The notes beneath the pieces are model-generated. The model made no database searches and was not told where the DNA came from. It saw only the letters and a program-made list of their open reading frames with translations. A stretch of DNA of 64,000 bases from NCBI GenBank assembly GCA_964016885.1, contig OZ024740.1:399404001-399468000 (forward strand). Reading direction: 5' to 3'. The translations under genes were made by a program, and so were the position numbers. How positions within the stretch are numbered: position 1 is the stretch's first letter; each line of letters begins with the position of its first letter. Source of the stretch: Eledone cirrhosa. Lineage: Eukaryota. Of this stretch, positions 1,152-5,108 are shown one piece after another.

Positions 1152-1749
1152 TTTTCTCTTTCTCTTAATTTCGAGTATATTTTTTTGACCGGCCACCTTC
1201 CTGGTGGCAAGGTTGTAAAAGAAAGAAATTGTCATCCCTTGAATCGCAAGAATGTTTTGCATATTTTGAAGGTGCCAGCTATCGCAGCCATTTGTAGACT
1301 ATGAATTAGGGAGCTGCGCTTTTTGTCCGCAAATCCAAGTTCAGTCATACTTTGGTCCAAGCGGGTTGGTATATAACCCGTAGCACCAATAATGATGGGT
1401 ATGAAGCTAAAGGTGTATCTTGGATACTGGATTTGTAAACTCCTCATCAATGGTCCGTAGATGTCCTCCTTCTCCTGTATTTTTCTGACAACGTTTACAT
1501 CAAGTGAGCAGCTGATCTCCACAACAGAACACGTTTTCAATGTGTGGTCCCAAACTACAATATCAGGCCGGTTGTGCTTTAATTTGGTGGCAGTTTTTAT
1601 TTTCAGGTTCCACCAGTATTCCTTAGTGCCATCTGTCTCAATATATTCTTCCTCGTTTGTTGTTAATTTTGTTTTCCAAAGTGCGTTCCAGATGGTTCTA
1701 GCTATCCCATCGTGTCTCATGGGAGGTAGTAGCGAGATGACATTCTTTC
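1152..1749 (-). mobile_element. R4/Dong-type RLE non-LTR retrotransposon, copy A (5'-truncated, about 0.6 kb)
   Basis: Near-identical to 1786-2387. Encodes the RHD...RPDIVV...VEISC endonuclease end. (TATG)n on both sides. Confidence 0.93.
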
Positions 1750-1785
1750 TATGTATGTATGTATGTATGTATGTATGTATGTATG

Positions 1786-4700
1786 TTTTCTCTTTCTCTT
1801 AATTTCGAGTATATTTTTTTTTGACCGGCCACCTTCCTGGTGGCAAGGTTGTAAAAGAAAAGAAATTGTCATCCCTTGAATCGCAAGAATGTTTTGCATA
1901 TTTTGAAGGTGCCAGCTATCGCAGCCATTTGTAGACTATGAATTAGGGAGCTGCGCTTTTTGTCCGCAAATCCAAGTTCGGTCATACTTTGGTCCAAGCG
2001 GGTTGGTATATAGCCCGTAGCACCAATAATGATGGGTATGAAGCTAAAGGTGTATCTTGGATACTGGATTTGTAAGCTCCTCATCAATGGTCCGTAGATG
2101 TCCTCCTTCTCCTGTATTTTTCTGACAACGTTTACATCAAGTGGGCAGCTGATCTCCACAACAGAACACGTTTTCAATGTGTGGTCCCAAACTACAATAT
2201 CAGGCCGGTTGTGCTTTAATTTGGTGGCAGTTTTTATTTTCAGGTTCCACCAGTATTCCTTAGTGCCATCTGTCTCAATATATTCTTCCTCGTTTGTTGT
2301 TAATTTTGTTTTCCGAAGTGCGTTCCAGATAGTTCTAGCTATCCCATCGTGTCTCATGGGGAGGTAGTAGCGAGATGACATTCTTTCGCAGCTGGCAACA
2401 ATGTGGCTTACATCCTCGATCTTTGTTTTACATAGCCTACATTTATTGTCAGCTGCTGGCCCTCCTCTTTTGTGCAGCAGATATTTGGTAGGGAGTTCTT
2501 GTTCCTGTATTGCATAGAGATATCCCTCAAGGTGTGATGTCATAAACTTGTCGGAACTCCATGCCAGGCTTTTTGAGTGGTTTATCCCCTCTATGGTCTG
2601 TGTTTTACGCCTCAAGTATCCATGCACAACTTTCTCTGTAAATTGGTCAATTTTTTTTTCTTGTTTGAACATTGAATAGGATCTTCCGATTTCTCTGGGT
2701 GAGAGATTTATATCAGGCTTTATTCCATATCTCTCCTCCAGATCAGTCGCTATTCTAATGATATTTCTTTTTTCATGCTCATAAACCTGAGCAAGATGGT
2801 CGCCAACCTTTTTCCTCTGTTGAAGGTGTTGCTTCAGTGTTACTATCCGGGTCTCATATGTTGTTAATATTGATTTTAGACCCCGGCCACCTTCCTTGCG
2901 TGAGAAGTATAGCCTATCCACATCACCATTGATGTTAAAGTTCCCAGTAACACTGAGAAGTTTTCGAGTTCTAACATCCATCTCACTTAGTTCTTGCAAT
3001 GACCAGTTCAGTAGGCCAAATGTTGGCGTTAGAATTGGCACAGCATAGGTATTGTGGGCAATGTATTTGTTGTATGCTGACAGTTCTGATGACCATATTT
3101 TTTTTACTCTTCTGAGGTATTCAGTTCTGGTTCTCTCCTTATTTATGGGTCCATCATATCTGACATTCTCATCCTGTCCAAGATATCTGAAGTTGTCACC
3201 TGACTGCAGAGGTTGTATTGTCAGGCCGTTCATCTCTAGATTTCTAGAGGAGGGCACAGCTCTTCCACGTTTTACTGCCAAATATGCACACTTGGACTCA
3301 CCAAATTTCATTTTGATGTCGGTTGAAAATTGTGTAATGAGGTCCAATTGTTTCTTGATGTCATTGATATTTGGCCCATACAACCTCAGGTCATCAACAA
3401 AGAAAAGATGGGAGATACTTCTGGGCCCACTTCTTTGTCCACCTTGTTTCCTGAGTAGGTAAGATAGTGGATTCAGTGAGAGAACGAAGAGTAGTACTGA
3501 CAAGCTATCACCCTGAAAGATGCCCTTCTGGTAATGTATCCTATCAGTCTTAACCTGCTCCTTCTCACCTCTAAGGATCAAATTGGTGTACCAGTTCTTG
3601 GTCAGGCGTTCAACAGCAGCTACTAATGGTTGTGGGACTTTAGCTAACTGTAAAGCCTTAATAATCCACCCATGAGGTACACTATCAAATGCTTTTTGAT
3701 AGTCCAGCCACACGACAGTCATGTTTCTGCGATTCTTTGTTGTTTTTTCCTGAATCATTTTGTTAGTTAGTAGGTGATCTATGCAACCCCACACCTCCCT
3801 CTTTCCACCAGCTTGCTCAGGTGTTATGATGTTGTTGGTAGCACAGTGATCCTGTAAGAACAGGTTAAGGCACCCAGTATATAATTTATACATGATGTTT
3901 TGGCAGGCAATTGGGCGGTAATTTTTAGCAAGGGTGGTTTGGCTATTTTGGGGAATGAGGAGAGTAGTGGCAGTTGATAACCATCTGGGCAGTTCTTGTG
4001 TGCCCTTAATGGTTTCTGTAAACAGCCGTATGAGATCTTGCCGATAGAAAGTGAAATTCTTCAACCAGTATCCTGTAATGAGGTCTGGGCCTGGCGATTT
4101 CCTATTCGACATTTTCTGTAGAGCTGTTTCCAGTATTGACCCATCTATGTCATATTGTTTTGTCTGGACATGTTGGCAGTAGTCCTGTTCCAGTTGTTTT
4201 AGCCAATTAGCTTGTCTGTTGAATCCGTCATCCGTTTCCCATACAGATCTCCAGTAGTTCTCAACCTGTTCTTTTGAAGGGGTGTCGTTTACAGGGATTG
4301 AGCTTTTGCCACCGAAGCTGCGATAAACTGATTTATGATCTCTGGCAAACAATCTATTTAGCACTTGTCGTTTATGGGCTGTTGACTTATATTTTAGTCT
4401 TTCTGTTGTAGCTGTGAGTTGTTGTTTCAACTGGTGTAATTTGGAGTTCAAAGTTTTAAATTTGGTATCTCCAAATCGTCTCTCTAACTTTTTCTTTAGG
4501 TCTTCCTGGTGTCGTGTGAAGTTTCTCTCTATGTTGCATTTCATAACGACTGCGATGTGTGAGATACTTCGTCTCAGGGACAAAATTTTGGTTTTTAAAT
4601 TTCGCATCCACGCTGGTTCAGGCTTTCTGTTTGTATCTTGATTGCGTGGTTTTAGATGTGTGTTATATGATAGCAATGTGACAGCTGAAACATATAACAA

Positions 4701-5108
4701 AACATTGAGCGTTTCAAATGTCGTTTCTACACCTTTAGATCGTATAGCCTTCAGATAATTGCCAGCTATTTCGTTCACCGCTTCCAATTCCAATTTAGTG
4801 GGTTCTTTACTGACTCTAGTGTTGTATGGTCTGTCACTCACATTAAGGCTGTGTATCTCTTGAAACATATCGTTCCATATCACTTGTAGGGTGCCCACAA
4901 GTTTTTGGTGCTCTGTTTGTTCAGTAGAGTCATGAATTGCAGCCTCGTTGTTGATGTGGTGACAATTACTACTAGAGTCAGCTGACCTTTCTCGCTGTTC
5001 TTCAGTGGAAGTGGGATGGATTTCAGCAAAATTGTTGGTGAGCTGTTCACTGTTAGATTTAGCTGGCCATTCTCTTTGTCTGTCAGTGGAGGTGGGGTGG
5101 TTGTCTAC
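1786..5108 (-). mobile_element. R4/Dong-type RLE non-LTR retrotransposon, copy B (3.3 kb, 5'-truncated inside the ORF)
   Basis: Single long ORF and a 3' UTR of about 80 nt ending GAGAAAA directly into (CATA)n. No poly(A). (TATG)n at both junctions. Confidence 0.95.
1869..5108 (-). CDS. Reverse transcriptase + CCHC zinc knuckle + PD-(D/E)xK restriction-like endonuclease (N-terminus missing)
   Basis: RT motifs KSPGPD, NYRPI, DYQKAFDSV, GIFQGDSLS, FVDD, YLG. CRLC-x8-H-x4-C knuckle, then RHD and RPD-x13-E. I read the frame upstream of the listed start (4898) and found no stop up to the microsatellite at 5108. Confidence 0.93.
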   Translation of the reverse strand, partial: VDNHPTSTDRQREWPAKSNSEQLTNNFAEIHPTSTEEQRERSADSSSNCHHINNEAAIHDSTEQTEHQKLVGTLQVIWNDMFQEIHSLNVSDRPYNTRVSKEPTKLELEAVNEIAGNYLKAIRSKGVETTFETLNVLLYVSAVTLLSYNTHLKPRNQDTNRKPEPAWMRNLKTKILSLRRSISHIAVVMKCNIERNFTRHQEDLKKKLERRFGDTKFKTLNSKLHQLKQQLTATTERLKYKSTAHKRQVLNRLFARDHKSVYRSFGGKSSIPVNDTPSKEQVENYWRSVWETDDGFNRQANWLKQLEQDYCQHVQTKQYDIDGSILETALQKMSNRKSPGPDLITGYWLKNFTFYRQDLIRLFTETIKGTQELPRWLSTATTLLIPQNSQTTLAKNYRPIACQNIMYKLYTGCLNLFLQDHCATNNIITPEQAGGKREVWGCIDHLLTNKMIQEKTTKNRRNMTVVWLDYQKAFDSVPHGWIIKALQLAKVPQPLVAAVERLTKNWYTNLILRGEKEQVKTDRIHYQKGIFQGDSLSVLLFVLSLNPLSYLLRKQGGQRSGPRSISHLFFVDDLRLYGPNINDIKKQLDLITQFSTDIKMKFGESKCAYLAVKRGRAVPSSRNLEMNGLTIQPLQSGDNFRYLGQDENVRYDGPINKERTRTEYLRRVKKIWSSELSAYNKYIAHNTYAVPILTPTFGLLNWSLQELSEMDVRTRKLLSVTGNFNINGDVDRLYFSRKEGGRGLKSILTTYETRIVTLKQHLQQRKKVGDHLAQVYEHEKRNIIRIATDLEERYGIKPDINLSPREIGRSYSMFKQEKKIDQFTEKVVHGYLRRKTQTIEGINHSKSLAWSSDKFMTSHLEGYLYAIQEQELPTKYLLHKRGGPAADNKCRLCKTKIEDVSHIVASCERMSSRYYLPMRHDGIARTIWNALRKTKLTTNEEEYIETDGTKEYWWNLKIKTATKLKHNRPDIVVWDHTLKTCSVVEISCPLDVNVVRKIQEKEDIYGPLMRSLQIQYPRYTFSFIPIIIGATGYIPTRLDQSMTELGFADKKRSSLIHSLQMAAIAGTFKICKTFLRFKG

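What the first reader, a model, noticed from the sequence alone, without database searches (positions are those of the whole stretch)
1152..5108. Young R4/Dong-type retrotransposon that appears to target (CATA)n microsatellites specifically
Seen: three copies with different 5' truncation points (1152-1749, 1786-5108, 40318-41422). Each has (TATG)n on both sides, always in the same strand orientation, with the 3' junction GAGAAAA|CATACATA (GAGATAA|CATA in copy C) and no poly(A). Copies A and B stack head-to-tail in one array. The window has abundant (TA)n, (CA)n, (GAT)n and (TAA)n tracts, none of which holds this family. Copy B keeps an unbroken RT-CCHC-RLE frame of about 1,080 codons. Known: RLE elements are often site-specific (R2 and R4 in 28S rDNA, Dong in (TAA)n). 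Inference: this is a recently active lineage with a tetranucleotide target that I do not recognise from the R4 clade. It may also help extend these microsatellites.
Basis: partly seen in the sequence, partly recalled or inferred. Interest (0 to 1): 0.8.

Follow-up and report, generated by a model that had tools for sequence, protein, structure and literature searches.

The report
Retrotransposon that targets CATA microsatellites
This is a young jumping gene, present in about 3,800 copies, that sits almost only inside CATA-repeat DNA and always faces the same way; it likely cuts that repeat on purpose, unlike its known relatives that use TAA repeats, which would show how such elements switch to a new landing site.

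Summary
Confirmed and extended. The three copies are real, at the stated coordinates. The family is a ~4.2-kb single-ORF (1,169 aa) non-LTR retrotransposon with RT, CCHC and restriction-like endonuclease, and has 3,809 exact 3' ends in the genome. In the first 100 copies, (CATA)n lies upstream in 91 (76 of 85 truncated copies) and downstream in 79, against 0.33% per side at random positions. Genome-wide the 12 nt after the end are (CATA)3 in 2,088 cases, (CA)6 in 9, (TA)6 in 7 and (TAA)4 in 0, although (AT)n tracts outnumber (ACAT)n 188 to 15. The repeat is not an obligatory tail: it can be 3 nt long, and in 29 of 100 it is the tail of an antiparallel RTE LINE or SINE. A second family shares the target. 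Both fall in a long-branch lineage whose other members with readable flanks use (CTTA)n; (AAT)n-flanked Dong-like families, also in this genome, branch apart. Dong-R4 activity in octopus and the ACAY target of Waldo (a different endonuclease) are published; I found no report of this target for an RLE element, but could not search Repbase or Dfam. Array extension is unproven. New variant of a known kind.

The parts
1037..1151 (.). Compound array downstream of copy A: (TCTG)13 then (TATG)n; reads (CATA)n on the element's strand
1152..1749 (-). Copy A: 598-nt 5'-truncated copy (end of RLE region + 3' UTR), 98.3% to B
1750..1785 (.). (TATG)9 between A and B: 3' flank of B and 5' flank of A
1786..5108 (-). 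Copy B: 3,323 nt, lacks about 900 nt of the 4.22-kb full-length 5' end
1869..5108 (-). Open frame of B, 1,079 codons + stop = residues 91-1169 of the full protein (99.4% aa to the intact copy in L169); lacks the Myb-like N-terminus
3177..3944 (-). Reverse transcriptase core (Pfam RVT_1)
2388..2441 (-). CCHC zinc knuckle C980-X2-C983-X8-H992-X4-C997 (full-protein numbering)
1884..2360 (-). Restriction-like endonuclease region: RHD, P1059-D1060, E1075, K1091; these motifs align across 17 relatives
   Evidence: motif names from established knowledge of R2-group proteins
1786..1868 (-). 83-nt 3' UTR ending GAGAAAA, no poly(A)
5109..5296 (.). (TATG)n array at B's 5' junction; holds a 12-nt repeat of B's first bases at 5231-5242
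40286..40317 (.). (CA)7 + (TATG)4 at the 3' end of copy C
40318..41422 (-). Copy C: 1,105-nt truncated copy of the older GATAA subfamily, 95.1% to B, frame broken
41423..41459 (.). Imperfect (TATG)n at the 5' junction of copy C

Best explanation
This is a recently amplified single-ORF retrotransposon of the R4/Dong type that sits in (CATA)n arrays in one orientation and likely gets there by protein-directed, target-primed reverse transcription into arrays that already exist. Shown: anatomy, copy number, youth, the target, a fixed 3' register (...GAGA(A/T)AA|CATA), 5' microhomology, and no long target duplication. Inferred by analogy to R2Bm: a Myb-like N-terminal domain binds about 20-35 bp of repeat upstream; the RLE nicks the (TATG)n strand at a fixed phase (plus or minus 1 nt, because the last A may be target-derived); that 3'-OH primes cDNA on the RNA's 3' end; and the often truncated cDNA is joined to the upstream (CATA)n strand through 1-7 nt of pairing. 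Many targets are the (ATGT)n tails and flanks of an antiparallel RTE LINE and its SINE, or flanks of earlier copies, which explains the stacks.
For: 3,809 exact 3' ends; 3,118 are followed at once by CATAY. The next 12 nt: (CATA)3 2,088, C(AT)5A 81, (CA)6 9, (TA)6 7, (TAA)4 0 (one phase each). First 100 hits on contig C1: a perfect CATA-phase run of 12 nt or more within 40 nt upstream in 91, downstream in 79, both in 73, opposite orientation in 2 and 0; truncated copies 76 of 85. Random positions in 400 kb: 0.33% per side, 0.08% both; tracts of 20 nt or more: AT 188, AC 42, AAT 16, ACAT 15. Array existed first: the downstream repeat can be 3-8 nt; 29 of 100 have an RTE/SINE 3' end right behind it; TA-richness of the two sides correlates per locus (rho 0.44, p 0.0009, n=54); one copy has (CAGA)n upstream. 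Asymmetry: fewer than 20 nt of repeat upstream in 6 of 100, downstream in 24 of 100, like the -34 to -22 upstream motif of R2Bm (PMC10499050, passages). Microhomology 2.3 nt versus 0.83 expected (56 clean junctions of 85; p 0.0002). First downstream interruption repeated upstream in only 4 of 66. Youth: identical 409-605-nt stretches on several contigs; 3 of 12 full-length copies keep a 1,168-1,169-aa ORF.
Against: No empty allele was seen (uninformative), so pre-existence is argued indirectly. The combined test over 8 repeat variants was not significant (p 0.09), and only TA and CAGA of the 8 correlated. The 5' excess of repeat fits new synthesis at the 5' junction as well as a binding footprint. 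9 of 100 copies lack a clean upstream run, 5 have none, and 1 has no repeat on either side. The Myb-like domain is a lead only (score 0.85); the structure job never finished. The 100 copies are consecutive on one contig and include duplicated and tandem ones. No biochemistry.
Confidence: 0.75

Rival explanations
1. RNA-guided choice: the nuclease is loose, and read-through transcripts ending in (CAUA)n pair with nicked (TATG)n to start reverse transcription, so the RNA tail, not the protein, picks the site.
For: Nearly all donor copies are followed by (CATA)n and have no poly(A). A link between 3' microsatellite-like repeats and the insertion site is proposed for RTE elements (PMC6007223, abstract).
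Against: The junction register is fixed (C 90, A 99, T 92, A 95 at +1 to +4), some copies have only 3-8 nt of repeat downstream, and the upstream side is the more constant one.
Confidence: 0.13
2. The element largely makes the repeats: it needs only a short CATA seed, and the long 5' arrays are synthesised at insertion by slippage or template jumping, so it builds microsatellites more than it finds them.
For: Upstream arrays are longer (median 80 versus 48.5 nt; Wilcoxon p 0.0003). Copy B has a 12-nt repeat of its own first bases inside the upstream array. Filled RTE/SINE tails average 125 nt (n=29, capped at 200) versus 93-107 expected from 20 SINE tails under length-biased targeting.
Against: That excess is small and the samples are small. 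Proximal 5' repeat is not significantly purer than 3' repeat in young copies (n=18, p 0.10). Local TA content is shared by both sides. No other 5'-end duplication like B's was convincing among the 100.
Confidence: 0.09
3. Passive accumulation or artefact: random insertion with loss elsewhere, or misassembly at repeats.
For: Passive enrichment near CA repeats is suggested for Drosophila Waldo-A/B (PMC3812793, passage).
Against: Base-exact register, one orientation, avoidance of the much commoner (AT)n and (AC)n, and the same pattern in copies identical to the reference. Raw reads of another sample show (TATG)n loose ends at an internal truncation point (444 reads).
Confidence: 0.03

Closest known systems
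Dong (Bombyx mori), DongAg, DongBg; R4 clade / 'Dong-R4'
   Same: Microsatellite-inserted elements of the R2 group (PMC3636483 passage); single RT-CCHC-RLE ORF. Near-full-length relatives at 26-38% aa carry (AAT)n flanks in 28 of 45 metagenome loci inspected.
   Different: Dong targets (TAA)n (PMC3812793 passage); this family never does (0). It lies in a separate long-branch lineage (SH-aLRT 100 in two quick trees), while (AAT)n-flanked families of the same genome group with the others. No named Dong, R4 or Rex6 sequence was in the trees.
Octopus Dong-R4 families (O. vulgaris, O. bimaculoides)
   Same: 5 recently active families, 1,129 insertions, 4.73 Mb, i.e. about 4.2 kb each (PMC13282606 Table 1), the full length found here; a full-ORF Dong in O. 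bimaculoides (PMC9115989); R4-Dong nearly confined to cephalopods among molluscs (PMC10294476). The nearest named protein is from Argonauta hians (63% over the RT region).
   Different: No target specificity in the passages I saw ('target' has 0 hits in the main text of PMC13282606). Their sequences were not compared, so identity with a published family is likely but untested.
WaldoAg1, WaldoAg2, WaldoFs1 (R1 clade)
   Same: Target ACAY repeats, which include (ACAT)n = (CATA)n (PMC3812793 passage).
   Different: APE endonuclease, insects. Here there is no APE domain and a C-terminal RLE: convergence on one target, not kinship.
R2 (R2Bm, R2Tg)
   Same: RT similarity (E 1e-28 to 1e-15); CCHC-RLE; upstream recognition is the mechanistic model (PMC10499050).
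   Different: 28S rDNA target; N-terminal C2H2 finger, not seen in the 17-protein alignment.

Membership tests
R4 clade (Dong-R4) | Single long ORF with a non-LTR reverse transcriptase | tested here: met
   1,169-aa ORF in the 4.22-kb copy; RVT_1 E 3e-25
R4 clade (Dong-R4) | C-terminal CCHC knuckle followed by a PD-(D/E)xK restriction-like endonuclease | tested here: met
   C-X2-C-X8-H-X4-C, RHD, PD, E and K motifs aligned across 17 relatives; zf-RVT in 17 of 17. Motif definitions recalled; domain order as in PMC10499050
R4 clade (Dong-R4) | No APE endonuclease | tested here: met
   No APE-type Pfam family at E up to 0.5 in any of 17 members
R4 clade (Dong-R4) | Groups with named R4, Dong and Rex6 in an RT tree, apart from R2, NeSL, HERO and CRE | tested here: inconclusive
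   No named reference was available. It is far closer to (AAT)n-flanked RLE elements (E to 1e-154, near full length) than to R2 (RT only), but forms its own long-branch lineage; NeSL, HERO and CRE were not in the trees
R4 clade (Dong-R4) | N-terminal Myb-like DNA-binding domain (recalled for the R2 group) | tested here: inconclusive
   Residues 8-85 are conserved and resemble Rap1-type Myb clusters at score 0.85, a lead only; fold prediction did not finish
Dong in the strict sense | Inserts in (TAA)n | tested here: not met
   0 ends followed by (TAA)4 versus 2,088 by (CATA)3
R2 clade | Inserts at the 28S rDNA site | tested here: not met
   Flanks are microsatellite in 97 of 100
R2 clade | N-terminal C2H2 zinc finger(s) | tested here: not met
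   None visible in the N-terminal columns of the alignment or in Pfam
Waldo (R1 clade) | Targets ACAY repeats | tested here: met
   (ACAT)n yes; pure (AC)n almost never (9)
Waldo (R1 clade) | APE endonuclease | tested here: not met
Any Repbase/Dfam entry with this target | Sequence identity to a curated entry annotated as (CATA)n- or (ACAT)n-specific | not testable with these tools
   No transposon database is offered

The most novel reading that the evidence does not exclude
An undescribed, deep sister lineage of TAA-targeting Dong has switched to tetranucleotide C(A/T)TA targets. In this genome two of its families and an unrelated APE-type RTE LINE with its SINE share one microsatellite on opposite strands: RTE tails seed the arrays, the RLE elements colonise and lengthen them, and the stacks feed each other. 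Most long (CATA)n arrays would then be products of this cycle.
Probability: 0.35. Interest if true: 0.7.

Novelty: new variant of a known kind. Interest (0 to 1): 0.52.

Why it matters
RLE retrotransposons are the model for site-specific insertion and are being developed as gene-insertion tools (PMC10499050). A lineage that changed from a 3-nt to a 4-nt repeat, with (CATA)n and (CTTA)n members and (AAT)n-targeting families in the same genome as controls, makes the question of what sets RLE target choice directly testable by domain swaps. It also supplies the missing insertion rule for what is likely the most abundant young full-length LINE type in octopus genomes, bears on why mapping tools found few non-reference Dong sites (insertions lie inside microsatellites; inference), and warns that (CATA)n markers in such genomes often sit at transposon ends.

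Tried and rejected
Empty allele: the run search with copy C's flank gave 7 runs from 2 studies; laying 4 of them on 39900-41900 showed no listed joint skipping the copy, and contigs break at the repeats, so this says nothing about polymorphism. Structure: the AlphaFold job on the 17-protein alignment was still unfinished; no fold search was run. Ribozyme: Rfam scans of six loci and of the SINE gave only sub-threshold, repeat-driven hits; no HDV-like or twister ribozyme is shown. I first read the 610-nt non-coding element as a same-strand partner SINE of this family; rejected, because its fixed end faces the other way and its head and tail match an RTE-type LINE. The neighbour table is discarded: its RTE reference contained microsatellites. 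Long target-site duplication rejected (4 of 66). Viral contigs hold no relative. The original Dong paper was not held. Earlier scan findings: none. The careful tree did not finish; both trees are quick ones with SH-aLRT only.
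Full report
Observation. B carries 1,079 open codons with RT and zinc-knuckle matches. The host genome G000 is 3.0 Gb in 1,796 contigs. I infer an octopus-like cephalopod from that, the microsatellite load and the nearest named protein, from Argonauta hians.

The element. Copies reaching further 5' define a full length of about 4.22 kb: a 630-nt AT-rich 5' UTR starting ATGGCGACC, one 1,169-aa ORF and an 83-nt 3' UTR. 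B lacks the UTR and the first 90 codons. Of 12 full-length copies found by the head motif, 3 keep the whole ORF. An alignment with 16 relatives shows RT, CCHC, RHD and the PD, E and K endonuclease motifs, and Pfam finds no APE domain. Residues 8-85 resemble Myb domains, a lead only. There are 3,809 exact matches to the last 29 nt. Two subfamilies differ at the end: GAAAA (45 of 48 at 97.5% or more to the reference copy) and GATAA (49 of 52 below that). Thirteen full-length copies are 94.3-99.7% alike, and identical stretches occur on several contigs. That shows recent amplification; present-day activity is not shown.

Target. 3,118 of 3,809 ends are followed at once by CATAY. With a 23-nt end motif the next 12 nt are (CATA)3 in 2,088 cases, C(AT)5A in 81, (CA)6 in 9, (TA)6 in 7 and (TAA)4 in 0 (one phase each). 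I examined all of the first 100 listed hits (contig C1, 3-88 Mb; not a random sample, and some are duplicated or tandem). A perfect CATA-phase run of at least 12 nt lies within 40 nt upstream in 91, downstream in 79, on both sides in 73 and on either in 97; the opposite orientation occurs in 2 upstream and 0 downstream. Truncated copies: 76 of 85; full-length: 15 of 15. In 40 arbitrary 10-kb stretches the chance is 0.33% per side and 0.08% for both, and tracts of 20 nt or more number AT 188, AC 42, AG 21, AAT 16, ACAT 15. The enrichment is far beyond chance and against availability.

Target or tail. The downstream repeat can be 3-8 nt long, so it is not an obligatory tail. In 29 of 100 copies it is directly followed by the 3' end of an antiparallel RTE LINE or SINE, i.e. 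the element appears to have split that element's tail. TA-richness correlates between the two sides of a locus (rho 0.44, p 0.0009, 54 loci with 30 nt or more on each side), but the combined eight-variant test gave p 0.09. The first downstream interruption recurs upstream in 4 of 66 informative copies, so there is no long target duplication. 5' junctions show microhomology (mean 2.3 nt versus 0.83; 56 clean junctions of 85). Upstream repeat is rarely under 20 nt (6 of 100), downstream often (24 of 100). Exceptions: 9 of 100 lack a clean upstream run and one has no repeat at all. No empty allele was obtained.

Does it extend arrays? Upstream arrays are longer (median 80 versus 48.5 nt), B has a 12-nt copy of its own 5' end inside its upstream array, and filled tails are somewhat longer than length-biased expectation (125 versus 93-107 nt; 29 and 20 sites). 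A binding footprint explains the first point equally well. Unresolved.

Neighbours in the arrays. (1) A second RLE family (67-70% nt over matched stretches; 48-55% aa; 4,880 exact 3' ends) has the same orientation and register: 17 of the first 20 have CATA downstream, and 8 of the 14 with a readable 5' side have it upstream (a lower bound, since alignments to one reference break early). (2) A 610-nt non-coding element with one fixed and one variable end faces the other way; 8,188 exact ends. In 20 hand-picked hits from that list, 15 have (TATG)n at the 5' side; the 3' count is circular because the pattern demanded it. Its tail matches the end of an RTE-type LINE with C2H2 fingers and a microsatellite-rich 3' UTR, and its head leads into an APE ORF at another locus, so it is likely an RTE-derived SINE. 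That LINE has the anatomy described for RTE-2_OV (PMC9115989 passages); sequences were not compared. (3) Distant Dong-like families in the same genome are flanked by (AAT)n (L151, L179, L196, L197, and window 10801-12408), an internal control.

Lineage. Of 80 metagenome loci returned I inspected 45, mostly those reaching the C-terminus: 28 show (AAT)n, 2 (ATT)n, 2 (ACA)n, 1 (AT)n, 2 (CTTA)n, 10 nothing. The two (CTTA)n loci are the nearest (43-44% aa); L212 has the repeat on both sides with the same C-first register, and L213 has a short CATACATA downstream, which is only suggestive. In two quick trees (RT, 72 rows; C-terminal half, 45 rows) both CATA families, the CTTA loci, Argonauta proteins and many unnamed proteins form a long-branch group (SH-aLRT 100) apart from all trinucleotide-flanked rows. 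Only four members of that group have clearly known flanks, and no named reference was in the trees.

Mechanism. Most likely protein-directed TPRT as in R2Bm, where an upstream motif at -34 to -22 and bases -6 to +1 are read (PMC10499050 passages): upstream repeat bound, the TATG strand nicked in phase, cDNA primed, 5' end joined by microhomology. The junction facts are shown; domain roles are inferred (0.75). Rivals: RNA-tail pairing (0.13), repeats made at insertion (0.09), passive or artefact (0.03).

Literature. Seen as passages: PMC3812793 (Waldo ACAY; Dong TAA; it lists Dong among APE types, whereas PMC3636483 places DongAg and DongBg in the R2 group), PMC4640811 (RLE clades, Togen (TG)n), PMC10294476, PMC10499050, PMC9115989 (4 of its 8 supplements could not be searched; no 'Dong' in the others). 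PMC13282606: first third of the text, passages and its one supplement. PMC6007223: abstract only. Kojima and Fujiwara 2003 and 2004 were not read, only cited through these papers. Eight searches found no report of an RLE element targeting (CATA)n or (CTTA)n; subscription papers, Repbase and Dfam are outside them, and curated entries often note targets.

Verdict. A real, well-supported target specificity. It works like Dong but is not Dong in the strict sense; it converges with Waldo on the target. New variant of a known kind; interest 0.52.

Noticed in passing
window 10776-12408 (+): Decayed Dong-like RLE element (27-34% aa to the focal family) starting right behind (TAA)8; looks like a classical TAA-type family.
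   Followed up: partly
L194 8428-9038 (-); 8,188 exact ends in G000: 610-nt likely RTE-derived SINE flanked by (TATG)n on both sides, antiparallel to the focal family; its 5' head has hairpins that differ in a compensatory way between subfamilies (seen by eye); no Rfam match above threshold.
   Followed up: partly
L142, L121, L144, L151: RTE-type LINE with C-terminal C2H2 fingers and a 3' UTR made of (TG)n, (TTA)n and T runs; in L151 an (AAT)n-type Dong-like copy is inserted in that UTR repeat.
   Followed up: partly
L115 491-4600, L199 1653-2858 (-); 4,880 exact ends: Second (CATA)n-flanked RLE family, older, same orientation and register.
   Followed up: partly
L211, L212 (metagenome contigs): Full-length relatives flanked by (CTTA)n; host unknown.
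   Followed up: partly
window 5231-5242: 12-nt duplicate of copy B's first bases inside the upstream array, about 130 nt away; may record template jumping during 5' joining.
   Followed up: partly
G000:C2:248.45-248.47 Mb (L167, L168): At least four head-to-tail truncated copies at a 3.09-kb period with identical junctions; looks like tandem DNA amplification, not separate insertions.
   Followed up: no
L169 3278-3290 and other full-length copies: The 5' end often reads (A)AAATGGCG, like a YY1 site (motif recalled, not tested); possible internal promoter. The 5' UTR has internal direct repeats and length variants (4.02-4.23 kb).
   Followed up: no
window 6437-10330 (-): Fragmented L1/Tx1-like element (CCHC ORF1, APE, RT) on the minus strand.
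   Followed up: no
window 44898-47821, 48794-49558, 50509-53175: Several RTE-like APE-RT elements with frameshifts, next to (ATG)n and (AT)n tracts.
   Followed up: no
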